From a virus, in IMG/VR virus record IMGVR_UViG_3300044692_000034, positions 77,738 through 141,737 of that record: a stretch of DNA of 64,000 nt; one strand, written 5' to 3'. The notes beneath the pieces were generated by a model. It did no database searches. It was not told where the DNA came from and worked only from the letters and a program-made list of their open reading frames with translations. This document shows, in pieces, positions 42,011 to 63,905 of this stretch. The position numbers were made by a program, and so were the translations under genes. How positions within the stretch are numbered: position 1 is the first letter of the stretch; every line of letters starts with the position of its first letter.

Positions 42011-43363
42011 TTACGTGAACGCCGGCTGCTGACAGCCGACGGTGCAGGTGTAGAGATCGACGCCCGGGAGCTTCTGGAAGCGGCCGGTGAGCCCGACCTC
42101 GGCCGAGCCCTGGTCCGGGTTCGGGCCGGGACTGTCCGGGATCTCCCACTGGACGCCCTCGACGTCGATCGCGAACGACGCGTACGTCTGCCCGCCGGAG
42201 TCCTTCTTCTGAAGGTTGGCGGAGTAGCCGCCGATCGGCGGGACCCGCTTGACGGGCTTGGTGCCGGCCACCGGCGTGGGATCGTTGTAGACCCACCGGT
42301 TCCACTTCTCCAGCATCGTGTTGTCGAACAGCATGGTCGCGCCGATGGTGGCGCCGACGTTGCCGCGCGCGAAGTCGAACGGGACGGTGTCGTCTCCGTA
42401 CACGAACGAGAGGTCCAGGTTGAGGGTGAACTGGAACTGCGTCTGTCCCTCAAAGACCTGGCCGTCGAGGGTGTACGAGCCGTGGCCCTCGGTATAGATG
42501 AGGACCGGACTGGACGGCATGTCGACGGTCGGCTCCGTGGCTTCGTCGTACACCTCACCCGGGTCGACGAACATGATCGTCGGGGTGACGCGGAGGACCT
42601 TGGCGCCGGTGCTCGCCTCGATGACGAGCTGCCCGATCCTGCCGTCGTTCATCTTGAGGCGCTGGATGCTGCCGATGGTGGCGCCGACGGTCTGCCACCA
42701 CGTCATCCAGAACCCGACGCCGCCGCCCGGCTTCGTCGCGTGCGAAGCGTTGACACCCGGCGTGGACTGCACGAACGTGACGTGCGGGCTGCTGCCGCCC
42801 GTCAGGTTGTTCGTGTACGCCTTGATCGCGGGCATCGGGCGCTTGGCTCTCAGCCCACCGTACGTGAGCGTGATCGCCGCCGGCCACGGGCCGCCCGTGC
42901 AGGTGACGTTGCCGGCACCGATGTACGGGTGAGCTTGGAGCGCGGCCTGCACCGCACCGGCCGTCGCGTTGAAGTTCAGCGGCGTGGTCGGGCGCCCCTC
43001 GATGTCGAGCAGGATGCTGCCGCCCGTGGGCGTGCCTCCGAGCGCGATGGTGTCGATCTCGTTGGTGCCGGAGAGCAGGACGTCTTCGTCGCCGTGGAAC
43101 ATCCACAGCAGCCACGCCAGCTCATCGACGGACCCTTCGACGCCCGGCGTGCCGGTGCCGGTCATCGAGTTCAGCCACGTGGTGACGTCGCCGAACGCGG
43201 TGCCATCCGAGAAGTTCTCCGTACCAGACTCGACGGCGACCTGTGCGCCACCGGTCACGAGCTTGAACGAGACGTCTGCGTCGGTGGCCGGCGTTCCCTT
43301 GGCCGACTGCTTCGCAGCCCAGACGCGATAGATGTTGGTCTCTGAGAGGGCAGCGTTGGACAT
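42011..43363 (-). CDS. Major tail tube protein
   Basis: AKQSAKGTPA N-terminus; inserted TNE..TI...GTPTGG...LNFNATA..VQAAL domain; position. Confidence 0.8.
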   Translation of the reverse strand: MSNAALSETNIYRVWAAKQSAKGTPATDADVSFKLVTGGAQVAVESGTENFSDGTAFGDVTTWLNSMTGTGTPGVEGSVDELAWLLWMFHGDEDVLLSGTNEIDTIALGGTPTGGSILLDIEGRPTTPLNFNATAGAVQAALQAHPYIGAGNVTCTGGPWPAAITLTYGGLRAKRPMPAIKAYTNNLTGGSSPHVTFVQSTPGVNASHATKPGGGVGFWMTWWQTVGATIGSIQRLKMNDGRIGQLVIEASTGAKVLRVTPTIMFVDPGEVYDEATEPTVDMPSSPVLIYTEGHGSYTLDGQVFEGQTQFQFTLNLDLSFVYGDDTVPFDFARGNVGATIGATMLFDNTMLEKWNRWVYNDPTPVAGTKPVKRVPPIGGYSANLQKKDSGGQTYASFAIDVEGVQWEIPDSPGPNPDQGSAEVGLTGRFQKLPGVDLYTCTVGCQQPAFT

Positions 43364-43656
43364 TACTTCTCACCGTCCTTCTCTGCCTTGCTCTTGTCGC
43401 GGCCGGCGGATGGCTTCGGAGGCTTCTCCGGCTCCTGCTCCGGCTCCTCGTAAGCCTTCGCGAGCGCTGTCCTCTTGAGAGGCGCGTACTTGTCGAGCCT
43501 GGCGATGGTGGCTTGGTCGTCGACCACGAAGACGCCGTTCGGGCTGCCCTCGACCAACTCCCTGACGTTGACCGTCGTGCTGTCGTTCACGAAAACCGTG
43601 CCCAACGCATCCAGGTCCGTGTACCCCGCCTTTGGCGTGTATGCCACCGCTGTCAC
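43363..43656 (-). CDS. Hypothetical structural-region protein
   Basis: Coupled to tail tube gene. Confidence 0.6.
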   Translation of the reverse strand: MTAVAYTPKAGYTDLDALGTVFVNDSTTVNVRELVEGSPNGVFVVDDQATIARLDKYAPLKRTALAKAYEEPEQEPEKPPKPSAGRDKSKAEKDGEK

Positions 43657-43810
43657 CGGCCCGACCCCCCTTGGAATCTGACTCGCGGCTTGCTGCCCAT
43701 GCAGCGCCGCTGACTTTATTCGACTCCTAAGTGGGGGCTGACCCCGGCTTCGGTGGGCTCTAGGATGCCGAGCGGTGCGGAGTGCGTGTGCACTCCCTAG
43801 CCGTTCGGCG

Positions 43811-44263
43811 CTACGTCATGTTTTCGTCGTAGCACTGGAACAGGACGCTGCTCATGCCGGTGTAGCCCTGTCCGCTGTCGCTCTCAAGCATCTGGTGGCC
43901 GCGCCACTCCTGCGACTCGATGACCCGCAGGCCCGCCATCTGCCAGTTGAATTTGTCGATGAGCAGGCGCCGGCATGCGCTGTACAGCTCTTCGTTCCGT
44001 GGCCACGTCAGCGTGCGGTACCAGATGTCGATGATGGTGCGACGGAACTCGCTCTCGAACCTGGCGGCCGTGATGGCGTTGGTATGGATCAGCCCGATTA
44101 CGGCGTCCTGGCCAACTGCGGTGCCTTCTCCTTCGCGCGGCGCGGGGGTGCCGTCTGCCGGCTGCCTCCAGATCGGCGGCAGCGACATGTTCGTGCCGTC
44201 GCGTGGGTCGCGGCCGATGCTGTTCTCGATGAGGTACGCCTGGATGCGGTCGGCGATGATCAC
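43811..44263 (-). CDS. Tail terminator / neck protein
   Basis: IQAYLIENSIG pattern; synteny. Confidence 0.6.
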   Translation of the reverse strand: MIIADRIQAYLIENSIGRDPRDGTNMSLPPIWRQPADGTPAPREGEGTAVGQDAVIGLIHTNAITAARFESEFRRTIIDIWYRTLTWPRNEELYSACRRLLIDKFNWQMAGLRVIESQEWRGHQMLESDSGQGYTGMSSVLFQCYDENMT

Positions 44264-44664
44264 AGGACTGTGCTCTTGAATCGGGTCCGCGACCGCTTGC
44301 TCGCGAACGTTTTCTGAACCGAGATGCGTAGCTCCTTCTCGAACACCTTCGCCATCAGGATGGCGTTGGCTTCGAGGAACTTGGCACGGCCGCCACGCGG
44401 ATGCTTGAAGTGCAGCGCCTCATGTTGCTTGACGGCGTACGCTCCTTCAACACGGACGAGGACGTACCGTGGCAGGACGGTGACACTCACATGGTCGGCG
44501 AGCGAGTACCCGGGGTCTGGGTCACGTGCCGGGTCGCCGACTGGGATGTCGGCGATGGTGGCGAGCGCCAGCTCATCGCCAACAGTCTTGAGGACGTCGT
44601 GGCCAGCTTCTTCCATGGCCGCCACGAGCCGCTTTGCAAGACCGTCGAACTTGCTGCTAGGCAC
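44260..44664 (-). CDS. HK97 gp10-like neck protein
   Basis: YAVKQHE...HP.GG.AKFLE motif. Confidence 0.75.
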   Translation of the reverse strand: MPSSKFDGLAKRLVAAMEEAGHDVLKTVGDELALATIADIPVGDPARDPDPGYSLADHVSVTVLPRYVLVRVEGAYAVKQHEALHFKHPRGGRAKFLEANAILMAKVFEKELRISVQKTFASKRSRTRFKSTVL

Positions 44665-45022
44665 GCCTGAGGATGATACGGGTTACGCCTGGTAGGCCGG
44701 GCGTGGTCGTACGCCGCCGCCACCGCACGATGCCAGTCTCCGCGTCCTGTCCGTCAATTTGGAACTCGATGCCGTAGCCGACTTCGAATTCCAGCACAGC
44801 TGCGTCTATAACCATGGTCCGGTCGAGGAGCTGGTCGATGACGGGGAGCCCGAGGTCTCCTCGGCTTGCCCGTGTCCTGTCCTCGTCGACCTCTACGCAG
44901 AGTACGCGTTCCTTCCCTGACCACACTTCTGTGCCGGGTACCGCTGGCCTGTCCCACTCGGCTTCCTGCCCCGGACCAGTCACGCGCGTAAGAACGCAGT
45001 TCGTGATCGTCGGGAGCTTCAC
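44657..45022 (-). CDS. Head-tail adaptor/stopper
   Basis: EWDRP...VWSG motif; synteny. Confidence 0.55.
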   Translation of the reverse strand: MKLPTITNCVLTRVTGPGQEAEWDRPAVPGTEVWSGKERVLCVEVDEDRTRASRGDLGLPVIDQLLDRTMVIDAAVLEFEVGYGIEFQIDGQDAETGIVRWRRRTTTPGLPGVTRIILRRA

Positions 45023-50645: not shown

Positions 50646-52232
50646 CTACTTGACCTTCAGGACGCGGAACGCGTTCGGCGAGAGCACCACCGACGTGTTC
50701 CGCCAGAAGGCGACGATGCCGCGCTGGCCCGTCGGCCGGCCGGACGTGCCGAACAGGTGCGGCACCAGCTCGATGTCCATGCCGACCCGGTCGACGATCA
50801 GGAAGTAGCGCCAGTCGCCGACCGCGAGGATCAGGTTGCCGGTGGCGATACCGCTCGCCATCGCCGAGCACTCGTTCGCCGGCCGCCCGAGGAGCTGCGC
50901 CCCGAGGTTGCCCGGCGTCGGGACCTGGTTCTGGAACCCGAGCTGGAGGTTCTGCACGAAGATGTTCGCGCCGCCCGCCGTGTCGAACTGGCGGGTGAGG
51001 TCGTAGACGGAGAGGTTGCCGACCCACTGCGCGCGGGCGCGGAAGCGGGCGGGCAGGTTCTCCCACACCTTGTAGATGTCGGCCACGGCGAACGTGGCGG
51101 AGCCGGCGCCGGTGACGACCGTCGTCGCGCCCGTCAGGAAGCCGCTCGGCTCGTCGGAGCCGTCGCCGTCCGTGAACTTCTGCGCCTCGACGTCGTCCTT
51201 GCCGTCCTGGATCATGACGGCGATGTCGGACTGGAGCGAACCCCAGTCCTGGCCGATCTCGACCGAGTACGGGATGAACGCGTCGCATCGGACCGGCGTG
51301 GCGTCCGGCTGCGCGAGCGTCGGCGAGTCGTCGGTCATCTGCGCGGCCTGCGCCTTGTACGACACCGAGACACCGGCGGAGCTGACGCCCTGCCACGTCG
51401 TCGTCGCGATGGACTCGACGCGGGCGATGTTGCGGTACGGGTTGACCGAGTGGTTCGACGTCGGGATGATCGTCGGGTCGAGCGTGAACGGCACCGCGAA
51501 GCCGCCGCCGGAGCCGGCGGTCGACAGCGCGCGCTGCTCCTCGTTCGTCAGCGGGCGGCCCATGAGGCTCTTGCCGAACGCGCGCTTGTACTCCGGCGAG
51601 CCCGTCGACAGGATGCGCCGCGCGAGGAAGTCGGCCTGGTCGCTGCCCAGCTCGACGTCCGCGTCACGGAACTTCTCCAGCAGGCCCGCGATGTGCTCCT
51701 GCGCACGCTCCCGCGACACCTCGGGGTGCGGGAACGTCGTGTTCTTGTCCTCGAGCGCGCGGAGAACGTTGTCCCTCAGCTTCGAGGACTCCTCGGCGGG
51801 AGAGCGCGCCCAGTTGCGGATGGCCCAGACGTCGTAGATGTTGGTCGGACCGGAGTCGCGAGTCGTGTGAAACGTGGCACCGCGCTCCGACGACCCGCCG
51901 CCGTCGTTGATGTTCTTGAGCCGGTCCGCGCGAGCGCGCAGCTCCTTGATGATGTCCTCGTTCTCCTCCAGCTCCTCGTTGTAGTCGTTCCACGACTTGC
52001 GCTGAGCCTCCGGCATGATCTGGCCGGCGAACGCGGAGTCCAGCTCCGTCAGGGCGGTGCGGATCTGCGCCTGGCGGACCTCGAACTCCTCGATCGTGCG
52101 CGGCCGATCGTTCGTCGGCAGGCCCGCGAGGAAGAGGGCGTTGGACGTACGCTGCCACGACTCCTCGTCGTGCAGCAGGGAACGGAGGGCGGTCACGCCC
52201 GCCGGGATGGTGAGGGACTTCACAGTCTCCAC
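50646..52232 (-). CDS. HK97-fold major capsid protein with N-terminal delta domain
   Basis: Coiled-coil N-terminus; GGFAVP..LDPTII; GDG..EP.G; LLGRP; GDW..F.IVDR.G; AFRVL. Confidence 0.95.
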   Translation of the reverse strand: METVKSLTIPAGVTALRSLLHDEESWQRTSNALFLAGLPTNDRPRTIEEFEVRQAQIRTALTELDSAFAGQIMPEAQRKSWNDYNEELEENEDIIKELRARADRLKNINDGGGSSERGATFHTTRDSGPTNIYDVWAIRNWARSPAEESSKLRDNVLRALEDKNTTFPHPEVSRERAQEHIAGLLEKFRDADVELGSDQADFLARRILSTGSPEYKRAFGKSLMGRPLTNEEQRALSTAGSGGGFAVPFTLDPTIIPTSNHSVNPYRNIARVESIATTTWQGVSSAGVSVSYKAQAAQMTDDSPTLAQPDATPVRCDAFIPYSVEIGQDWGSLQSDIAVMIQDGKDDVEAQKFTDGDGSDEPSGFLTGATTVVTGAGSATFAVADIYKVWENLPARFRARAQWVGNLSVYDLTRQFDTAGGANIFVQNLQLGFQNQVPTPGNLGAQLLGRPANECSAMASGIATGNLILAVGDWRYFLIVDRVGMDIELVPHLFGTSGRPTGQRGIVAFWRNTSVVLSPNAFRVLKVK

Positions 52233-53353
52233 GGCTCCTTGGTGTTGCCTCGGAGAGGAGTGGGGGCTGACCCCGGCGCCTCAAGGTAATCGGGCCGCTC
52301 GCGGCGCTCTCGGCGCGGCTGCGGCCCCTCGACGATGTCCTCCTTGCCCGGGAGGGGCGGGTGTTCGCGCTGCCAAGCAGGCACGAAATCCTTGTCGCCG
52401 GCCGGTGTGTCAGCCGGCGTGTCTGCGCCCTCCTCGGACTCGCCCGAGGCGCGCTCCGCCGGCTCGTCAGCCGTTGCGTCTGGAGCTTCCGGAGTCGCCT
52501 CGCGGGCGCCCTCCGGCGTCTCCTTCTCGGCAGGTGACGTCTCGGCCGCGCCGTCTTCGGGGTCGGCCTTCTCGTCGGCGCGCTGAGTGGAGACGGTGAT
52601 GTGCTCGCGCGGCTGCTCACGCTCGGGCGAGACCTTGCGAGCAATCAGATCTGCGAGGGTTGCGCCCTCTCCGGCCATGCGCAGCATCTCCGGGTCGCCG
52701 AGACCGAGGCCCGCAGCGATGTACTCGTCCGTCAACGAGCGGAGACCGGCTGTCGCATCGGGATAGGCCGGGAACGTGACAGGCCCGAACTCGCTGACGC
52801 GCATCTCCTTGATGGTGCGCTCAGGAATGCCGTTCGGGTTGTGCTCGGAACGGGGCGGCTCCTGGTTCCAGTCCTCTTTGATGATGCTGAAGCGGAAGCT
52901 AGCGCCGTAGAGCCCGGCTTCGAGGCCGGGGAGAAGGGTGCTGCGCACGTAGTCGGCGTCGAGCAGGTCGACCTCGTACGCGCCACCGGTATTGTCCTCG
53001 GCGAGAGACCGGATCGGGCCGAGCGGCTTGCTACCGATCTGCGGGTCCCGGCCATGTTGGAACAGGACCTTCATGCCCGTCCTGTTCTCTTTGAACGTCT
53101 TCTTGGCAGCCCCGGGCGCGATGCGCTCCATGAAGTTGCCCTCGAACCAAGAGTCGATCTCGGTCCAGCGGTTGAACACGCAGAAGTGCCCGGCCATGAC
53201 TGGCGTGTCACCGTCGCCGGAGCCGTTCTTCGCGCGCAGCTCGATCCCCGGGATGGTTAGCTCTCCCTCGGAAGGGGGAGACCAGAGGCGGATGAGGTTG
53301 TCCCTCGGCGCCTCGTACCGACCCGGAGGCGGCGGCGTTGACTTGCCACTCAT
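52220..53353 (-). CDS. HK97-family prohead protease
   Basis: F.ERIAPGA, VLFQHG, YGASFRF, RTIKE....EFGPVTFPAY..A. Confidence 0.93.
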   Translation of the reverse strand: MSGKSTPPPPGRYEAPRDNLIRLWSPPSEGELTIPGIELRAKNGSGDGDTPVMAGHFCVFNRWTEIDSWFEGNFMERIAPGAAKKTFKENRTGMKVLFQHGRDPQIGSKPLGPIRSLAEDNTGGAYEVDLLDADYVRSTLLPGLEAGLYGASFRFSIIKEDWNQEPPRSEHNPNGIPERTIKEMRVSEFGPVTFPAYPDATAGLRSLTDEYIAAGLGLGDPEMLRMAGEGATLADLIARKVSPEREQPREHITVSTQRADEKADPEDGAAETSPAEKETPEGAREATPEAPDATADEPAERASGESEEGADTPADTPAGDKDFVPAWQREHPPLPGKEDIVEGPQPRRERRERPDYLEAPGSAPTPLRGNTKEPWRL

Positions 53354-53383: not shown

Positions 53384-55117
53384 CTAGTCACCGCCACCTG
53401 TACTTTCGTTAGGACCGGGTCCTTTGTCCATGAAGGGCCACAGGAACGTGCCGGGTTCCCGCGCAGCGCGATGCTTGACGAACGTGTTCCCGAAGCGCAG
53501 GTTGACCATTGTCCGGTCGTCGTCGACCTCGGCCTGCTCGGCAAGTCGCCGCTGCTCCTCCGCTTCTGTCGCCTCGCGCGCGAGCCGCACCTGCCGCGCG
53601 TAGTCGTTCTCTTCGATGACGTCGGCGTCTGGGACGTCGTAGTCTGCTGACGCCGCGCCGCTTGTGCCGTTCGCGCTCGCGCCGGCACCGTTGCCATTCC
53701 CGTTCGAGTTGCCGTTCCCGTTGCCGTTGAGGAGGTTGCTGCTGTTCGTCTCCGGCTGTGACGCTGAGCCGGGCGGTTGGAGCTGGACGCTGACGAGCCC
53801 CGTGTGCTTCAGCAGCGTCATGTCCCCGGCGTTGACAGCCTTCACGACGCTGTCAGGCTCGAAGCCTTCCTTCACAAGGATGGCGATCGTGGTGGCGTCC
53901 GCCTGGAGCGCAGCGGCCGTGTCGGTCGCGTCCTCCTGGAGGAAAGAGATGTCGCTCGGGTCGTACCACAAGCGGACGCCCTGCCCGCGCGGAAGGTCGA
54001 CGATCCGCTGGAGGCTGCCGCACGCGTTGCGCCACATGGGACGCATCGCGAGGTCACCGAACGCGCGCTTGGCCTGCCCGTAGTTGCTGTACGTGCTGGC
54101 GTCAAGACCTTCGCTCAGCCCGATGATGATCGGCGGGACTCGTGCGGCTGCGCAAATGCGTGTCTCGCCCGCGCCCTGCACTTCCTTGAATGACGCCTGT
54201 TGCATGTTGGCTCCGACGAGCGTCACGTCAGCGCCGCCACCGAGGTAGATGGTCTTGTAGGCGTTCATGACGCCCGTGTGTTCTTCCTCGAACGCCTCGA
54301 CGAACTCCTTGAAGTTCTTCGGCGTGATGTCCTTGTCGAGCGAGACGATCGTGTTCACTGTCGCGCCCTGCTCGAAGAACTTCAGCTTGTGTGTGGTGGC
54401 TGCGTCGTCGCTCCGGATCTCTTTGATGACCGGAGTGATCCACGACATGCCACGAAACCGGCCCGTCGGGTCCGGCACGAGCTTGAAGTGAGCGACCTCG
54501 TCCGCGAGAAATGTTTTGACCGGCTGGCCTGAGTTGCGGCCACCCGGATGGTAGATGTAGCCGATGACCTCGGTGTCCCACTCCCACAGAGGATGATCGC
54601 TGTTCGGCTTGAGCTGCGACCCACCGACGATCGTGACCCAGTCAGGCTGGAGGCGCCGGCACGACCACGGCGCCGTACCGAACTGCGACTTCGGGCCACG
54701 CGCGATGAACGCGTTGCCGGCGAGGTCAACATCGAGGGACATGATTGACAGTAGGTCGCTTGTGCTGCCGCCCGCCCAGGGCTCTTCCAACGGGAGTAGC
54801 GCTTGCGTTCCGAAGAGCGCGCCGGCTTTGCCGTTGTCCATCTGCTGGAACTGGAAGCGGGCTTCGCTGAACAGCAGCATGCGTGCGACGAGGCACGCGT
54901 ACACGACGCCGTTGTTCTTCATGGCGCCTTGCACCATGCCCTGGAAGTCGGCGGGGATCTCGTCGGCTGGCTGCCCGAGGCTGTACTGGTTGTTGTTCGG
55001 CATCGGGAAGCCGTTGAGCATGATCATCGACAGCCAGTCGTCGACGGTCAGTGTCGGCCACGTCTCCCCAGATCGCGCCTGCTGACGCCCCCCGAGCCAG
55101 TCACGAAGGACGCTCAT
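53384..55117 (-). CDS. HK97-family portal protein
   Basis: NGVVYAC, LAGNAF, EVAHF, RGMSWI, FFEQGAT, RICAAARVPP..IG, TYSNY. Confidence 0.95.
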   Translation of the reverse strand: MSVLRDWLGGRQQARSGETWPTLTVDDWLSMIMLNGFPMPNNNQYSLGQPADEIPADFQGMVQGAMKNNGVVYACLVARMLLFSEARFQFQQMDNGKAGALFGTQALLPLEEPWAGGSTSDLLSIMSLDVDLAGNAFIARGPKSQFGTAPWSCRRLQPDWVTIVGGSQLKPNSDHPLWEWDTEVIGYIYHPGGRNSGQPVKTFLADEVAHFKLVPDPTGRFRGMSWITPVIKEIRSDDAATTHKLKFFEQGATVNTIVSLDKDITPKNFKEFVEAFEEEHTGVMNAYKTIYLGGGADVTLVGANMQQASFKEVQGAGETRICAAARVPPIIIGLSEGLDASTYSNYGQAKRAFGDLAMRPMWRNACGSLQRIVDLPRGQGVRLWYDPSDISFLQEDATDTAAALQADATTIAILVKEGFEPDSVVKAVNAGDMTLLKHTGLVSVQLQPPGSASQPETNSSNLLNGNGNGNSNGNGNGAGASANGTSGAASADYDVPDADVIEENDYARQVRLAREATEAEEQRRLAEQAEVDDDRTMVNLRFGNTFVKHRAAREPGTFLWPFMDKGPGPNESTGGGD

Positions 55118-56633: not shown

Positions 56634-56999
56634 CTAGAGCCGCCAGGGCTCCGAGCCGGGATCGTACCCCTTCGTCTCGCTTGACTTCGCGGCGTTCTGG
56701 TGTCGCTTCAGGTGCGCCTCGACGCCGGCGCGGTCCGCATCGGGGATGTTCGCTCCCGGTAGACGCGCCAGCGCGTTGTTGACGCCGTTCAGGTTTGCAG
56801 CTCCCGGCTTGCCATTGACGACCTCGTGGTGCGGGAACTTGTACGCCGCCTTCTTCGTCTGGTCCGCGCTTCCGTCGACCCACGCGTACATCAGCCGCAG
56901 TGTCGACCTGCCGGCGTCGTCAGGGATCTTGCTGACCTGAGAATTCGCATCCCAGGTCCCTTCGACCACCTTCGTGTTGTGTGGACCGATTGCAGGCAA
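56634..56999 (-). CDS. Stand-alone head-associated domain (WD...YAWVD...YKFPHH) ending EPWRL
   Basis: GAGGAGG RBS before TTG; domain I recognise as usually fused to phage prohead proteases. Confidence 0.7.
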   Translation of the reverse strand: MPAIGPHNTKVVEGTWDANSQVSKIPDDAGRSTLRLMYAWVDGSADQTKKAAYKFPHHEVVNGKPGAANLNGVNNALARLPGANIPDADRAGVEAHLKRHQNAAKSSETKGYDPGSEPWRL

Positions 57000-57400
57000 C
57001 TGACCTCCTCGATGCAAGTTGCCGTGCACGGTACCGGCGACAGCCCGAGCGTGTGTACCATGCCTATGCTCCCGGCCGGACAGCCCGGGGCGTGTATGGC
57101 TCAAAGGCGTTGACGGCGGCTGGTGGTCTATGGGAGGACTCCGGCCGCCGTTGGCGTCTCCTGTACCATGCGCCGCGCGACGTCGAGCGGGCCGCCTCAT
57201 ACCCTGCGACCCCAGAGGGCGAACACTCTCCACGACCCCATAACGACCAGGTGCGGGGAGCCGTCGGATCAGGTGCGAACAATCTCCCGGCTAGTCCTCC
57301 GACGCCGCCTACTTTCTCGCGTAGTGGGTATCGGGGGTGCGCAGGCTGCGCGCACCCGTGTAGCCTGCCGGCCACTCTTGGCCCGCCGTAGGAGCGCCCC

Positions 57401-58231: not shown

Positions 58232-58606
58232 CTACACAGCATCCGGGCTCTTGTCGAAGAGTCGCGCTAGCACCCGCTCCACCGCACGGTGTAGGTCGGA
58301 CTCCAGCGCTGCGGCGTCTCCGACTGTGGCAGGCCCAGCCGTGCCGGCAGGGAACGTCACCTCGACCGACACACCTGTCGGCCGGATTCGGATGTCGTAG
58401 ACCGCGCCGGGCGTCTGGCATTCGGACGCAGCCATCTGTTCGACGCCGCGCCGCATCCAATCAAGCGCCTCCGTGATGAACGTCAGGGCGTGGCGGCCGT
58501 CGGAGATGCCGGGGTGCGAGTACGCGCGGTTGAGGGCGTCGCGGGCGTTTGCGATGCACTCGCGCGGCGCGACGCGGTCGGGGCCGATGGGGTCGTTCCA
58601 GTTCAC
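58232..58606 (-). CDS. Hypothetical protein
   Basis: GTGA coupling with upstream gene. Confidence 0.55.
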   Translation of the reverse strand: MNWNDPIGPDRVAPRECIANARDALNRAYSHPGISDGRHALTFITEALDWMRRGVEQMAASECQTPGAVYDIRIRPTGVSVEVTFPAGTAGPATVGDAAALESDLHRAVERVLARLFDKSPDAV

Positions 58607-59268
58607 CTGATCACCAAGTAGTCGCCACGGTTGCGCTTCGGGGGGTTTGTCATCGCTGCCCAGATTCGTGTTTCGAGTTCGGCGATGTGCATGAACGCTG
58701 GTTCGTCGAGCCCTAGCCACCACTCGTTGAGGTCACGCCATGCCCACTCTTCGTCGGAGAGTTCGAGGCATTCGGGCTTGCCGCACCGCGACCCCATGAC
58801 CTGGCTGCCGCATTCGGTGCAGCCCCGGATGCGTGCTACCACTGGCGTCCCCTCGTACGCGACGATGTCTCCGCCGATGGCCTGCTCGTACTTGACGCCA
58901 CCTTCGAGGACCACGGTGCGCCTGTTCTGGTCAGCTACGGCACGCTCGAACTGCTCGGCGAGTCGTTCGCGTGCCGCGTAGTAGGCGGCTTTCTGCGACG
59001 TGTTGTCGCCGGTCACATAGCCGCTGCTGGAGAAGGTTTCGACGTGCAGGCTGTAGGGGACGGCGTACCCGCCCCTGATCTCGTTCTCCGACAGGAGCCC
59101 TGCCTCCCTGACGAGCTTCTCCCATCGTGCGGCTTCGTCTGCTGGCAGCGGAAGCCCTTCGAATCGTTCGTCGATCGACTTCAGCTCTTCGACGCATTCG
59201 TGTATGGCTGCCATGACCTCGGTCCGGAGCATGAGGGTCTCCTCAGCGTAGGAGGCCCATGAAGCCAT
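58603..59268 (-). CDS. Mosaic protein with capsid- and portal-like segments
   Basis: See finding; gap-free motif matches to this phage's capsid protein. Confidence 0.65.
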   Translation of the reverse strand: MASWASYAEETLMLRTEVMAAIHECVEELKSIDERFEGLPLPADEAARWEKLVREAGLLSENEIRGGYAVPYSLHVETFSSSGYVTGDNTSQKAAYYAARERLAEQFERAVADQNRRTVVLEGGVKYEQAIGGDIVAYEGTPVVARIRGCTECGSQVMGSRCGKPECLELSDEEWAWRDLNEWWLGLDEPAFMHIAELETRIWAAMTNPPKRNRGDYLVIR

Positions 59269-59548
59269 CGTGCATGAGGCTGTCGCGTACGAACGCCGGG
59301 ATTGCTTCGAACGCGGTCTGTACTTTGACCGTGATCTTCTGGCCGGTTGACGGCTCGATGGTGTAGCCGAAGAACATGTACGGCATGCCGCCGTACATGA
59401 CGTAGTCCGGGTGGGTTACGACGCGGTACGCGTAGCGCGGCCACACCGGAGTCTCTGTGTTTGCTGCCGCTGGTACACCCTCGGGCATGGACTCCGCCCA
59501 GGGGAGCGCCGGCTGCGGCGTGGTGCTCTTCTCGCGTTGCTTACGCAT
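59243..59548 (-). CDS. Hypothetical protein (portal N-terminus-like segment)
   Basis: Operon coupling; weak similarity to portal N-terminus. Confidence 0.55.
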   Translation of the reverse strand: MRKQREKSTTPQPALPWAESMPEGVPAAANTETPVWPRYAYRVVTHPDYVMYGGMPYMFFGYTIEPSTGQKITVKVQTAFEAIPAFVRDSLMHDGFMGLLR

Positions 59549-60029
59549 GCTGGTACTCAGCGTACCCCGCGACGGCTTCGATGCGCTGATCGTGCCGTTG
59601 CAACCGGTACGCAAGGTAGTCCTTGACCTCACGAGCGTACGGTCCCTTTGACCAGCCCTCCAGCATGAGTACGTCATCCTTCGATTGGACGTCAACCGAG
59701 GCGTCGTATGGCTGTCGGTCTGTGGAGAAGAGATGCGCCCCGTCCCAGCCGACGTTGTCGCGGACGTACGCCACGACCTGACTGAGCGTGCGACCCACGA
59801 CGCATGTCGGCTTGCTTGCGTCAGACGCCGGTACCGCCTGAACGTCAATCTCGGGCGTGTCGCAAATCGCGTCCGCTGCGACTGCACGAGCTATCCCGGT
59901 AAGCGACGTAGTCAACGACTTGATGACGTCGGCTGGTAGCTCGCCGCTGTCGACCAAATCCAGCGGTATCGAAAGACTGAACAGGTGCGAGGGGTAGCGG
60001 CGCGTGGGCAGGCGGTCTGGGTCAGGCAT
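59541..60029 (-). CDS. Hypothetical protein
   Basis: Overlapping stop/start with neighbours. Confidence 0.6.
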   Translation of the reverse strand: MPDPDRLPTRRYPSHLFSLSIPLDLVDSGELPADVIKSLTTSLTGIARAVAADAICDTPEIDVQAVPASDASKPTCVVGRTLSQVVAYVRDNVGWDGAHLFSTDRQPYDASVDVQSKDDVLMLEGWSKGPYAREVKDYLAYRLQRHDQRIEAVAGYAEYQHA

Positions 60030-60768
60030 CGAGTCGAGGGGTTTGGAGTTTGTGCATGACCAAGGCAAGCATCGCTTGCGTCGAGTTGTCCGACTCCTCG
60101 ACCATGCGAAGTTCGTCGTACAGCTCAGGCTCGGCCTGTCGGAACAGCTCGGCTTGGCGGTTCGCTATCGCCAGCGACGCAAGTTCCTGCGAATAGAACG
60201 TCGTCTCCTGACACGCTCTGCACGTCCCCGACCAGTGGTCGCTGCGGCTCTCTGGTTCTTTTGCTTTGACATGGCCGCCGCACTTGTGGCACGTGAAAAC
60301 GTCACCGATCGCTTGGTCTCGGTATTGACGAGAACGCTGCTCCGTCAGGGGGCCGAGCGCTTCGACATCGCGGCGGCGTGCGTAGTCGAGAAATTCGAGG
60401 CGAATCGTAGGCAAGTCGTCAGGGTGCTCAGTCACCGGCACGCCGAAGAGTGTCTTGCGCGGATCTGTCGCGCTGCCGCTGAACCCGACAGCGAAGCCTG
60501 TGTCATGAGGATCGGCGCTGACCATGTCGACCCAATCCACCTTGTGGAACCTGACCTCAAGGTACTTGCCGAGCTCAAACGCCAGTCGCTTACCGGCCGT
60601 GTCGAGCAGGCCCCTGGCGCTCGCTACCTCGCGCGGCAGCGGCTCTATGCCCACCGTCCCGGGTGTTACGCGAGGGTCCACCATGAAGTGCTTCACGCTT
60701 TTGCCCTGCATTTGCGCGGCCTGGAGCACAGCTCGTATCCGACCAAAAGGTGTGGTTGGCTCAGTCAA
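60022..60768 (-). CDS. Hypothetical protein with Zn ribbon
   Basis: TCHKCG...TCRAC; TLFGVPV motif. Confidence 0.6.
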   Translation of the reverse strand: MTEPTTPFGRIRAVLQAAQMQGKSVKHFMVDPRVTPGTVGIEPLPREVASARGLLDTAGKRLAFELGKYLEVRFHKVDWVDMVSADPHDTGFAVGFSGSATDPRKTLFGVPVTEHPDDLPTIRLEFLDYARRRDVEALGPLTEQRSRQYRDQAIGDVFTCHKCGGHVKAKEPESRSDHWSGTCRACQETTFYSQELASLAIANRQAELFRQAEPELYDELRMVEESDNSTQAMLALVMHKLQTPRLDA

Positions 60769-61159
60769 CGGTGAACCTAAAGGTGTCGTAGCCGAACAGT
60801 GTGTTGGCGTGGCGGGTGTAGGCAGGCGGGATGTCCTGCCCGCGCTCGGCGTACTGCCTGGCGATGTGCGCGAGGTACGCGTCTTCCATGTGGTCAGCGG
60901 CCGTGCGCTCCGTGCCCGGCTTCCACACGTACGTGTAGGCGCAGTCAGCGCACGCGTAGATGCAGTCACCGACGTAGTAGACGCGGTCAAAGATGGCGAT
61001 GCCACGGTCAAGTGCAGCGCGGATCGTCGGGTGGTCGAGCATGAGCGAGTACGACGGGCTCACATCCACCCGGTAGATGAACGTCGCCAAGCGGCCACAG
61101 TTGGGCGCCTCGCACTTGGTGCCGAGGGGGATCTCAGGGAGCGGGTCCCACATGCTCAT
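60761..61159 (-). CDS. Hypothetical Zn-binding protein
   Basis: CEAPNC...CADC. Confidence 0.6.
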   Translation of the reverse strand: MSMWDPLPEIPLGTKCEAPNCGRLATFIYRVDVSPSYSLMLDHPTIRAALDRGIAIFDRVYYVGDCIYACADCAYTYVWKPGTERTAADHMEDAYLAHIARQYAERGQDIPPAYTRHANTLFGYDTFRFTVD

Positions 61160-62465: not shown

Positions 62466-62493
62466 GCCCTAACCCGCCGATGCGGGCTAGGGC
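62466..62493 (-). terminator. Hairpin at end of FtsK-like gene
   Basis: gccctaacccgc-cgat-gcgggctagggc overlapping the stop codon. Confidence 0.45.
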
Positions 62494-63905
62494 GTGGGGT
62501 CGGTGTCTGTGCCGTCCCCGAACGGCACAGCACGGCCGTCGTCCGGAAGCGTCCGGTGTAGCCACTCGTCCGCCCGGAGCCCATGAGCGCGACGCGCAAG
62601 ATTTTCGATGTCGGAGTCCGTCAGGTGGAACGCTTTCACGCGCAACGGAACGGCCTCCTCCGCCGCGAGCCACCCGATCCCCCGCGAGTTTTCGGTCGGC
62701 GGGATGGTTGAGGCGTCGTACCCCTGGCTCGCTGCCCGCGTGCCGAGGATCATGTCGCTTGCTTCTGCGGTGCCGGACCGGAACGCCCACCGGTACCCGA
62801 TGAGGTCCCGGAGCGATGTGGGGATCACGTCGTGTGACGGCTTCTGCGCCGCGCCGATGAAGATCACGCCGGGGGCTCGTCCCCTGCGGACCAGGTCCGT
62901 GGCGGTCTCCATGAGTGCGGTGCCGAGCGCCTTGCTCCCTACCTTTGGTCCGGCAAGGCTTGCGTAGTACGGCATCTCGTCCATGACGACGACGATGAGC
63001 TTGAGGCCCATGCTCCTCGTGATCGCCCTCGCCCCCTCCGCCTTCAGGATGTCCTTGCGGCCGTTCATCTCCTCCTGAACGGTTTTCAGGACGTCGAGTG
63101 CTTCTTTGCCGTCAAGGCCGACGAACGCTTTGCAGCACGGCGTCCATGCCGTCATCTCGTAGTCCTTGCCGTCCAGGATGTACAGGTCAACGTCGGGGTC
63201 GAGGGCGGCCGTAGCCACAATCTGGCTCATGCCGACGCTCTTACCCGACCCCGGCTCCCCACCGAGGAGAAGGTTTCGTTGCACGAGCGTGATGGACCGC
63301 TCGTAACCGTCCTCGTCGACAGCGACAGGGATCGGCTCCCACATCGACAACTGCTGCCGGTACAAGTGAGGCCACTCGTACGACTCACCCGTCATGAACG
63401 GGTCACGGCGGACGAGGACAGCCTGAGCCCTGGATGCGTCCATCGGCCGCGCCGGGTCACGAGTCACCTTGACCATGCTGCACTTGAGGGCGCCCGCCAT
63501 CTTCTGCGCCGCTGCGTCAAGCGCAGCGATCTCATCGCCGTTCGCGACCTTCAGCGTCAGCTTCTCCCCGGTCGGGACGTGCGCGACACGCAGCACACGC
63601 GGCGGGTCGACATTCCGCCTGGCGTCCATCGCCGCGCGCCGCCACTGCCGGCGCACCATGCTCGTCGTCAACCACCGCGTCAGCACGCCACGAACCCGGG
63701 CGTTTGACACGAGCACAACCGTTGTGACACTTGTCAAGCCGATCCCGATCTGGGTGCCGAGCCTTAGGCTCAGGGTGAGAGCAGTCACGAACACGACGGT
63801 GAACATCGCCAGCTCGACCCTGACACGCCACAGCAGTCGCACAAACGACGCGATCACATCAGTGCCTTCGCTCTTCCGACTGCCGCTGCGAGATGTTGAA
63901 GCCAT
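62487..63905 (-). CDS. FtsK/SpoIIIE-family DNA translocase (TraB/TcpA-like)
   Basis: N-terminal TM helices; Walker A GGEPGSGKS; Walker B VVVMDE; RRGRAPGV; AAQKPS.DVIPT.LRD. Confidence 0.9.
   Translation of the reverse strand: MASTSRSGSRKSEGTDVIASFVRLLWRVRVELAMFTVVFVTALTLSLRLGTQIGIGLTSVTTVVLVSNARVRGVLTRWLTTSMVRRQWRRAAMDARRNVDPPRVLRVAHVPTGEKLTLKVANGDEIAALDAAAQKMAGALKCSMVKVTRDPARPMDASRAQAVLVRRDPFMTGESYEWPHLYRQQLSMWEPIPVAVDEDGYERSITLVQRNLLLGGEPGSGKSVGMSQIVATAALDPDVDLYILDGKDYEMTAWTPCCKAFVGLDGKEALDVLKTVQEEMNGRKDILKAEGARAITRSMGLKLIVVVMDEMPYYASLAGPKVGSKALGTALMETATDLVRRGRAPGVIFIGAAQKPSHDVIPTSLRDLIGYRWAFRSGTAEASDMILGTRAASQGYDASTIPPTENSRGIGWLAAEEAVPLRVKAFHLTDSDIENLARRAHGLRADEWLHRTLPDDGRAVPFGDGTDTDPTP

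What the first reader, a model, noticed from the sequence alone, without database searches (positions are those of the whole stretch)
58603..59268. One ORF stitching capsid delta-domain, capsid N-arm and portal motifs together
Seen, gap-free: aa29-49 LKSIDERFEGLPLPADEAARW vs capsid delta domain LTELDSAFAGQIMPEAQRKSW (L..[LI]D..F.G..[LM]P......W), and aa59-74 LSENEIRGGYAVPYSL vs capsid LSTAGSGGGFAVPFTL. Then ERLAEQFERAVADQNRRTVVLEGGVKYEQAI resembles the generic HK97 portal motif (N.GK..VLEGG.KY) better than this phage's own portal (EAFEEEHTGVMNAYKTIYLGGG). GLLSENEIR also recalls the portal 'TxNExR' motif, and the C-terminal RNRGDYL echoes the protease's RERPDYL. Inference: a chimeric multi-epitope mimic, partly of other phages' portals.
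Basis: partly seen in the sequence, partly recalled or inferred. Interest (0 to 1): 0.85.

Follow-up and report, generated by a model that had tools for sequence, protein, structure and literature searches.

The report
Phage gene starting like a capsid gene
A small, fast-evolving gene of an uncultured 142-kb soil phage begins like the phage's shell (capsid) protein, carries a short signature of the DNA-entry (portal) protein, and ends in a zinc-binding module; it is probably an accessory protein that uses a copied 'address' to join head assembly, but its function is untested.

Summary
The ORF is a real gene on the minus strand (58603-59268). Its likely start is ATG 59232, which gives 209 aa.

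- **Capsid resemblance: real.** A profile of the scaffold (delta) domain plus N-arm was built from 8 related capsids, leaving out this phage's own. It hits this protein and both full-length homologues colinearly (E 1e-7 to 2e-5). None of 1000 shuffles per protein reaches those scores. Among all 2090 ORFs of the genome only the capsid and this ORF match.
- **Portal motif: real but short.** Pfam PF04860 gives E 6.8e-6, below its cut-off. It matches the generic HK97 portal, not this phage's portal clade, and the homologues do not score.
- **Other echoes: chance level.** This covers 'TxNExR' and 'RNRGDYL', and also direct comparison with the phage's own head proteins.
- **C-terminal third.** It is a 4-Cys zinc-ribbon module. 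It also occurs alone, once directly upstream of a portal gene.
- **Family.** It is tiny: five members among about 15 billion proteins.

My best reading (about 0.4) is a head-assembly accessory or cargo protein addressed by a copied scaffold N-terminus. A neighbouring gene carries the protease's C-terminal tail, which fits this reading. The decoy reading is neither shown nor excluded.

This scan has noted 'virion-fragment' mini-proteins before in other large uncultured phages; those are unchecked AI notes.

The parts
58603..59268 (-). The ORF as given (221 aa, P0001). The coding gene most likely runs 58603-59232 (209 aa, P0002), stop TGA at 58603-58605.
   Evidence: Translation. Database gene call of 209 aa. 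Homologues at 30-41% identity show it is a real protein gene. GC3 is 0.78 against 0.97 for the capsid gene.
59230..59244 (-). Probable translation start: Shine-Dalgarno GAGGAG (59239-59244), then ATG at 59230-59232 (= Met13). The upstream gene's stop TGA lies at 59243-59245.
   Evidence: Sequence read directly. Met13 aligns with the start Met of related capsid proteins.
59101..59238 (-). aa 11-56: copy of the first helix-turn-helix of the capsid scaffold (delta) domain.
   Evidence: Capsid-N HMM without own capsid: 13.4 bits for this stretch, HMM positions 7-52. AF2 helices 4-36 and 43-64 are the only confident part (pLDDT 67-82).
59044..59094 (-). aa 59-75: delta/N-arm junction (LSENEIR-GGYAVPYSLH), corresponding to capsid LTNEEQR...GGGFAVPFTLD with about 8 residues missing.
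   Evidence: HMM positions 210-220. BLASTP E 0.019. Homologues P0003 and P0004 carry the continuation LDPxxIPTS(..VNPY).
58882..59025 (-). aa 82-129: portal-like stretch ending in RRTVVLEGGVKYEQA.
   Evidence: Pfam PF04860 E 6.8e-6, HMM 161-206. PHROG 12 and 5929. TIGR01537. Same region of own portal picked by hhalign, not significant. The RcGTA portal shows ...RNAGRPMLLEGGLDWK at the aligned place.
58606..58845 (-). aa 142-221: C-terminal module, which occurs alone in P0005 (80 aa) and P0006 (71 aa).
   Evidence: P0006 lies directly upstream of a Mu-type portal gene.
58768..58821 (-). aa 150-167: four invariant cysteines (C150, C153, C162, C167; spacing C-x2-C-x8-C-x4-C in this protein, the middle gap varying among members), a putative zinc ribbon.
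   Evidence: Invariant in all five family members.
58639..58680 (-). aa 197-210: ELETRIWAAMTNPP, the most conserved motif of the family. It resembles the invariant portal motif GETRIxAAxxVPP.
   Evidence: 8/12 identical to own portal 318-329; 3 of 300 shuffles reach this. Best hhalign column block, but E 0.19. Suggestive only.
58232..58606 (-). Downstream gene (124 aa, no known family). Its GTG start overlaps the ORF's stop (GTGA).
59243..60774 (-). Three upstream co-directional genes that travel with the ORF. Homologues lie in the same order in L002, at 35-46% identity.

Best explanation
SHOWN: the ORF is a genuine accessory gene of a 142-kb high-GC soil phage. Its product is a three-part mosaic.
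1. From its first residue it copies the N-terminus of an HK97-type major capsid protein. It has the first scaffold (delta-domain) helix-turn-helix, then, with about 150 residues of scaffold missing, the delta/N-arm junction.
2. A stretch of about 45 aa matches the most conserved motif of generic HK97-family portals.
3. A 75-aa 4-Cys zinc-ribbon plus helical module follows, which also exists as a free-standing small protein in other phages.

INFERRED: the capsid-like N-terminus works as an address. In HK97 the N-terminal scaffold helices form the coiled-coil towers that dock between portal wing domains. A protein carrying the same helices could join those towers, or sit on the portal, and so be built into the procapsid. 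The retained delta/N-arm junction, where the capsid itself is cut, could let the prohead protease release the zinc-ribbon part inside the head or at the portal vertex. In short, it would be a scaffold-addressed head accessory or cargo protein. What the zinc-ribbon module does there is unknown.
For: - Capsid-N profile without own capsid: colinear hits in P0001, P0003 and P0004 (E 1.3e-7, 2e-5, 3.1e-7), with 0 of 1000 shuffles reaching them.
- It is the only non-capsid hit among the genome's 2090 ORFs.
- The probable start Met13 has a good Shine-Dalgarno sequence and aligns with the start Met of related capsids.
- The N-terminal helical hairpin is the only confidently modelled part.
- There is no nucleotide-level similarity to the capsid gene, so the likeness is kept at protein level.
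- The gene lies on the same strand as portal, protease and capsid, about 3.5 kb upstream of the portal. This position is conserved in the relative L001, whose portal is 80% identical.
- The C-terminal module alone is encoded immediately upstream of a portal gene in L004.
- Neighbour P0127 ends in EPWRL, as the prohead protease does. This tail is unique to these two among all ORFs of at least 60 aa, and their codons differ. Related proteases have similar ...W-x-L tails at or near their ends.
- In HK97 the scaffold coiled coils contact the portal wing groove (PMC10275583).
- From my own knowledge: Duda et al. 2013 (J Mol Biol 425:2765; the paper is not held here) reported that the HK97 protease C-terminus directs encapsidation.
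Against: - No experiment, virion proteome or expression data exists for this uncultured phage.
- The three homologues keep different sub-motifs. P0001 lacks LDPxxIPTS, P0004 lacks the first scaffold helices, and P0003 lacks GGYAVP. This looks more like decay of an ancestral capsid piece than conservation of one address.
- The delta-like stretch is closer to other phages' capsids (13/44 identical to L013 and to REQ1) than to its own capsid (8/44). That argues against tight co-evolution with the resident capsid.
- Five related phages with the same head module have no such gene, so it is not needed for assembly.
- Models are poor (pLDDT 50 and 57).
Confidence: 0.4

Rival explanations
1. Immune decoy. 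The protein displays consensus-like pieces of capsid scaffold, N-arm and portal. These would occupy or mislead a host sensor that recognises such head proteins, without triggering it.
For: - The pieces resemble generic or foreign versions better than the phage's own. Pfam's generic portal profile hits while the clade portal profile does not. The delta-like stretch is closer to L013 and REQ1 than to the own capsid.
- The gene and its three upstream partners evolve much faster (35-46% identity) than the adjacent portal and protease (80% and 75%), as arms-race genes often do.
- There is a precedent for a phage protein competing with a structural protein for a sensor: DSAD1 against the tail tube on DSR2 (PMC11087589).
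- Unchecked notes of this scan describe similar virion-fragment mini-proteins in other large phages.
Against: - No hit to any PADLOC model or to any known anti-defence family. No sensor is known for a delta domain or N-arm.
- My understanding is that known sensors of portal and terminase recognise folded proteins, not 10-45-aa motifs (own knowledge, not checked here).
- Family members retain different motifs.
- The C-terminal module, the best conserved part, has no resemblance to a head protein beyond a 12-residue motif.
Confidence: 0.2
2. Evolutionary patchwork without a present role for the head-like pieces. An old illegitimate recombination joined the 5' end of a capsid gene and a scrap of a portal gene to a small zinc-ribbon gene. 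Only the zinc-ribbon module is functional, and the rest is a decaying leader.
For: - The module works alone in P0005 and P0006.
- The homologues keep different remnants of the capsid N-terminus.
- The middle of the protein is predicted disordered.
- The portal-like stretch is not detectable in P0003 or P0004.
- GC3 is lower than in head genes.
Against: - The capsid-like segments are still detectable at E 1e-7 in proteins that share only 30-41% identity overall. P0004 keeps 13 of 16 N-arm residues, more than neutral decay would leave.
- The start codon still coincides with the capsid start.
Confidence: 0.2
3. Assembly interference or size control. A dominant-negative or scaffold-competing protein, in the manner of satellite proteins CpmB or Ccm, acts on co-infecting HK97-type phages or satellites, or tunes this phage's own large capsid.
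For: - It shares the scaffold N-terminus and N-arm motifs used in capsomer and portal contacts (PMC10275583).
- It is closer to foreign capsids than to its own.
- CpmB shares a capsid-binding motif with the helper's scaffold, and Ccm is a capsid paralogue (PMC6893505).
Against: - It is encoded by a complete phage, not a satellite. No satellite features were seen in the region.
- Related phages with the same head genes lack it.
Confidence: 0.12
4. Chance resemblance: an ordinary ORFan whose similarities to head proteins are coincidental.
For: - Pairwise comparison with the phage's own capsid, portal and protease is not significant.
- An equally striking but spurious RAD51 match (E 0.012) appeared and vanished with the family profile.
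Against: - Independent profile tests, shuffles and the genome-wide scan all single out this ORF.
- The homologues from other samples carry complementary capsid motifs.
- Four portal profile libraries agree on the same residues.
Confidence: 0.05

Closest known systems
N-terminal scaffold (delta) domain and N-arm of HK97-type major capsid proteins (PF05065 proteins of Rhodococcus phage REQ1, Mycobacterium phage Brujita, Gordonia phages)
   Same: The first helix-turn-helix from the start Met (motif ..I..eF.G..lP.e...W..l..E), the LT.EE.R junction and the GG[FY]AVP[FY].LDPxxIPTS..VNPY N-arm motif are shared colinearly across the family.
   Different: There is no HK97 fold at all (no A or P domain, no PF05065 hit). 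About 150 scaffold residues are missing, and after the N-arm the protein continues into unrelated sequence.
HK97-family portal proteins (PF04860, TIGR01537; e.g. RcGTA portal 6TE8, PDB 9LW9)
   Same: It has the ...N-x-[GR]-[RK]-x-x-[VL]-L-E-G-G-x-x-[YW] motif with its preceding helix and, about 70 residues later, an E-T-R-I-x-A-A-x-x-x-P-P-like motif, in the portal's order.
   Different: Only about 48 of 321 profile positions match, below Pfam's cut-off. There is no match to its own portal clade, and the homologues do not score. It is not a portal.
Address peptides for procapsid entry: the C-terminal tail of the HK97 prohead protease, and the capsid-targeting sequences of T4 internal proteins
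   Same: A short piece shared with a core head-assembly protein sits at a terminus of an otherwise unrelated protein. A neighbouring gene copies the protease tail EPWRL.
   Different: Here the putative address is a copy of the capsid's own scaffold N-terminus, which I have not seen described. Neither incorporation nor cleavage has been shown.
Satellite capsid-hijack proteins CpmB (SaPI1) and Ccm (SaPIbov5) (PMC6893505)
   Same: They are proteins that copy a scaffold or capsid segment and use the same binding site in the shell.
   Different: Those are encoded by satellites and redirect capsid size. This gene sits in a complete phage next to its own head genes.
DSAD1 of phage SPbeta, competitor of the tail tube protein on DSR2 (PMC11087589)
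   Same: It is a conceptual precedent for a phage protein that occupies the site where a structural protein is sensed.
   Different: There is no sequence or known structural relation, and no sensor is known for the motifs displayed here.

Membership tests
HK97-type major capsid protein (PF05065) | HK97 fold (A and P domains, E-loop) detectable as PF05065 above cut-off | tested here: not met
   No PF05065 hit at E<=0.1 for P0001, P0003 or P0004. The full-length capsid HMM matches only positions 28-80 and 236-248.
HK97-type major capsid protein (PF05065) | N-terminal scaffold (delta) helices and N-arm motif | tested here: met
   Capsid-N HMM E 1.3e-7, 3.1e-7 and 2e-5 for the three full-length members; 0 of 1000 shuffles reach these.
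HK97-family portal (PF04860) | Whole-domain match above Pfam gathering score (39.1 bits) | tested here: not met
   25.9 bits, covering 48 of 321 positions. TIGR01537 gives 11.6 bits against a 112-bit cut-off.
HK97-family portal (PF04860) | Conserved LEGG-type wing motif | tested here: met
   Four profile libraries align aa 98-129 to this motif. It is not detected in P0003 or P0004.
Procapsid-addressed internal or cargo proteins (T4 CTS type, HK97 protease-tail type) | Terminal peptide shared with a core head-assembly protein | tested here: met
   The N-terminus aligns from the start Met with capsid scaffold N-termini.
Procapsid-addressed internal or cargo proteins (T4 CTS type, HK97 protease-tail type) | Physical presence in procapsids or virions and processing by the prohead protease | not testable with these tools
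   The phage is uncultured and there are no proteomes. The complex prediction gave no verdict.
Satellite scaffold or capsid mimics (CpmB, Ccm) | Encoded by a satellite that lacks its own full head module | tested here: not met
   The gene lies in a 141.7-kb virus record, 96% complete, with its own portal, protease, capsid and TerL.
Anti-defence decoys or inhibitors | Similarity to a known anti-defence or defence-associated family, or shown binding to a sensor | tested here: not met
   No PADLOC, Pfam, PHROG or NCBIfam hit of that kind. Binding is not testable.
Zinc-ribbon small proteins | Four conserved Cys in C-x2-C ... C-x2-4-C spacing | tested here: met
   C150, C153, C162 and C167 are invariant in all five members. 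There is no significant match to a named zinc-ribbon family for this protein. Metal binding is not tested.

The most novel reading that the evidence does not exclude
Large uncultured phages may deliberately build small proteins from consensus-like signature pieces of head proteins. Here the pieces are the scaffold tip that docks on the portal, the N-arm, and the portal's LEGG and ETRI..PP motifs, joined to an effector or handle domain. Such proteins could act as molecular mimics in two ways. They could titrate a host sensor of assembling heads, or they could poison the portal-scaffold nucleation step of rival HK97-type phages. This ORF and the protease-tail-bearing neighbour would then be members of a previously undescribed mimic system.
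Probability: 0.2. Interest if true: 0.85.

Novelty: new variant of a known kind. Interest (0 to 1): 0.55.

Why it matters
If the copied scaffold N-terminus is an address, it would be a natural, portable tag for loading proteins into HK97-type procapsids. It would also point to a class of head-internal or portal-vertex proteins in actinobacterial phages that annotation pipelines call hypothetical.

If instead it is a mimic aimed at host sensors or rival phages, it would show that phages recycle the most conserved pieces of their own assembly proteins as weapons.

Either way the case shows that significance appears only at family and profile level. Pairwise comparison with the phage's own proteins would have dismissed it.

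Tried and rejected
- **Pairwise comparison with own head proteins.** BLASTP and Smith-Waterman of the ORF against its own capsid, portal and protease were not significant.
- **RAD51-like match.** It scored E 0.012 (IGGDIVAYEGT~IGGNIMAYSST) but disappears with the family profile, so I treat it as chance.
- **Clade-specific portal profile and hhalign.** Both pick the same portal region but are not significant.
- **Structure models.** AlphaFold2 gave pLDDT 50 for the whole protein and 57 for the C-module. That is too poor for fold searches, so none was run.
- **ESM Atlas look-alikes.** Nothing above noise.
- **Complex prediction.** ORF with capsid residues 1-300: no verdict.
- **More family members.** Searches of the phage database, viral, metagenome and genome contigs found none. 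A profile search of 5.8 billion proteins returned only the known three.
- **A second decayed head module in the cluster.** No other ORF of the genome matches the capsid or the clade portal profile. This includes the 'portal N-terminus-like' ORF at 59243-59548.
- **A shared-tag library.** The C-terminal module occurs once in the genome.
- **Related phages.** REQ1, Brujita, ThankyouJordi, Sbash and one IMG/VR contig have no second capsid-like ORF.
- **Expression and variation.** No RNA holder is listed. The contigs laid show no variants, and the only holders are soil metagenomes that may be the source.
- **Neighbour annotation in homologous loci.** No informative families.

Full report
**What is there**

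The finding's coordinates hold a 221-codon ORF on the minus strand. The window is the last 64 kb of a 141.7-kb IMG/VR virus record judged 96% complete. It has about 65% G+C and is held only by soil metagenome runs, which may themselves be the source of the record.

Downstream on the same strand lie three head genes:
- the portal, 53384-55117 (PF04860);
- an S78 prohead protease, 52220-53353;
- an HK97-type capsid gene with a long scaffold domain, 50646-52232 (PF05065).

The closest isolated relatives of these head genes are Rhodococcus phage REQ1, Mycobacterium phage Brujita and Gordonia phages, at 36-46% identity. The large terminase is not near the portal. It sits about 90 kb away in the record.

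**Gene model**

The upstream gene stops at 59243-59245. GAGGAG follows, and six bases later the ATG at 59232 (Met13). The public gene call also starts there, giving 209 aa. The next gene starts with a GTG that overlaps the stop. GC3 is 0.78, lower than in the portal (0.84) and capsid (0.97) genes.

**Is it a real gene?**

Yes. Exhaustive searches of about 15 billion proteins found four relatives.
- P0003 has 252 aa, is 41% identical and aligns full-length.
- P0004 has 221 aa.
- P0005 (80 aa) and P0006 (71 aa) are short proteins that match only the last 75 residues.

No others were found in phage, viral, metagenome or genome collections.

P0003 comes from a close relative of this phage. Portal and protease there are 80% and 75% identical, but the ORF and the three genes upstream of it are only 35-46% identical, in the same order. 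The ORF therefore belongs to a fast-evolving four-gene block next to a conserved head module.

**Checking the capsid resemblance**

Compared directly with the phage's own capsid, the similarity is not significant. The homologues changed the picture.
- P0004 contains SLDPTLIPTSSQTVNPY, 13/16 identical to the capsid N-arm TLDPTIIPTSNHSVNPY (Gumbel P 3e-5).
- P0003 aligns with the start of the scaffold domain (1 of 500 shuffles reaches its score; Gumbel P about 0.004).

I then built a profile of the scaffold-plus-N-arm columns from eight related capsids, leaving out this phage's own. All three full-length members hit it colinearly:

| Protein | Score | E-value | Residues matched to profile positions |
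|---|---|---|---|
| P0001 | 17.7 bits | 1.3e-7 | 11-56 to 7-52; 65-75 to 210-220 |
| P0004 | 16.5 bits | 3.1e-7 | 48-70 to 218-240 |
| P0003 | 10.6 bits | 2e-5 | both segments |

None of 1000 shuffles per protein reached these scores, and the short members do not hit. Among all 2090 six-frame ORFs of the genome, the profile finds the capsid, then this ORF (E 3.6e-4), then nothing better than E 2.8. The full-length capsid profile behaves the same way.

Met13 aligns with the start Met of the relatives' capsids, so the gene begins as a capsid gene begins. Synonymous sites differ throughout, so this is not a recent duplication.

The stretch is somewhat closer to foreign capsids (13/44 identical to L013 and to REQ1) than to the resident one (8/44). 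Each homologue keeps a different subset of the ancestral capsid motifs.

**Checking the portal resemblance**

Pfam's generic portal model hits aa 82-129 at E 6.8e-6, below the family cut-off. Two PHROG portal families and TIGR01537 give their only or best weak hits on aa 98-129. The solved RcGTA portal shows ...RNAGRPMLLEGGLDWK at the aligned position, against RRTVVLEGGVKYEQ here.

A profile of this phage's own portal clade (40 sequences) picks the same place but without significance. P0003 and P0004 do not score with Pfam.

A second echo is the family's best conserved motif, ELETRIWAAMTNPP, against the portal's invariant GETRICAAARVPP. It is 8/12 identical, 3 of 300 shuffles reach that, and hhalign gives E 0.19. 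It lies in the portal's order but is only suggestive.

The protease echo RNRGDYL is chance-level.

**The C-terminal module**

Four cysteines, D172, W175, A176 and the E-x-E-x-R...A-x-T-x-P-P motif are invariant in all five members. P0006 is encoded directly upstream of a Mu-type portal gene. No named family, structure or atlas cluster matches. The module occurs once in this genome.

**Context that bears on function**

A gene 1.4 kb downstream (56634-57233, P0127) ends in ...SEPWRL, and the prohead protease ends in ...KEPWRL. This tail is unique to these two among all ORFs of at least 60 aa, and three of the five codons differ. Related proteases have similar ...W-x-L tails at or near their ends.

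In HK97 the scaffold's N-terminal coiled coils form towers that dock in a groove between portal wing domains (PMC10275583). According to Duda et al. 2013, which I cite from memory because the paper is not held, the protease's C-terminus directs its encapsidation.

So two accessory genes in one small region each carry a copy of a known head-assembly contact element. Five related phages with the same head module have no second capsid-like ORF, so this is an accessory trait of the lineage.

**Interpretation**

The mosaic is real for the capsid part, and probably real, though short, for the portal part.

I favour a head-assembly-associated accessory or cargo protein (about 0.4). It would be addressed by the copied scaffold N-terminus and possibly trimmed at the retained scaffold/N-arm junction.

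The decoy reading (0.2) fits three things: the consensus-like character of the motifs, the fast evolution, and the DSAD1 precedent (PMC11087589). It has no direct support. A functionless patchwork leader in front of a working zinc-ribbon module (0.2) fits the differential retention of motifs. Interference with other phages' assembly, in the manner of CpmB or Ccm (PMC6893505), remains possible (0.12).

Earlier unchecked notes of this scan describe 'virion-fragment plus tag' mini-proteins in other large uncultured phages. This case resembles them in concept but has no shared tag library.

**Limits**

The family has only three full-length members. The models are poor. There are no expression or proteome data, and the complex prediction gave no verdict.

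Noticed in passing
window 56634-57233 (-) and 52220-53353 (-): P0127 ends in SEPWRL* and the prohead protease ends in KEPWRL*. The tail is unique to these two among all ORFs of at least 60 aa of the genome, and three of the five codons differ. Related proteases have similar W-x-L tails at or near their ends. It is a candidate procapsid-targeting tail on an accessory protein.
   Followed up: partly
G000 about 43000-44700 (-), outside the window: The large terminase (PF03354, 553-aa frame) lies about 90 kb from the portal. This explains why no terminase is seen in the window.
   Followed up: partly
window 58603-60774 (-); L002 37-2292; L003 254-2663: The ORF travels with upstream partners: a 101-115-aa protein with a PVWP-x-Y motif, and a 124-175-aa protein with a [VI]L-x-[LF]-x-GW-x-[KE]G-like motif. 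Both also appear, by eye, next to P0004. This is a conserved but unannotated module.
   Followed up: partly
window 62487-63905 (-): An FtsK/SpoIIIE-like ATPase (PF01580, E 2.4e-9) lies at the very end of the virus record, on the same strand as the head genes.
   Followed up: no
window 58870-58910 (-), aa 121-134: There may be an 11-residue internal duplication in the ORF (LEGGVKYEQAI / GGDIVAYEGTP) relative to P0003. The second copy caused the spurious RAD51 match.
   Followed up: no
window 53384-53800 (-), portal aa 460-577: The portal has a C-terminal extension of about 110 aa beyond its relatives, with an (N-G)n repeat (NGNGNGNSNGNGNG) and an acidic, helical tail.
   Followed up: no
window 52090-52232 (-): The capsid ORF extends about 47 codons upstream of where related capsids start. 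Its true start is uncertain.
   Followed up: no
L004 795-3451: In an unrelated high-GC phage the 71-aa zinc-ribbon protein P0006 sits between another small Cys-rich protein and a 725-aa Mu-type portal. The portal's own C-terminus carries a Cys-rich motif.
   Followed up: no
window 59243-59548 (-): The small ORF said to resemble the portal N-terminus does not match the clade portal profile or Pfam. It is conserved next to the ORF in L002 (46% identity).
   Followed up: partly
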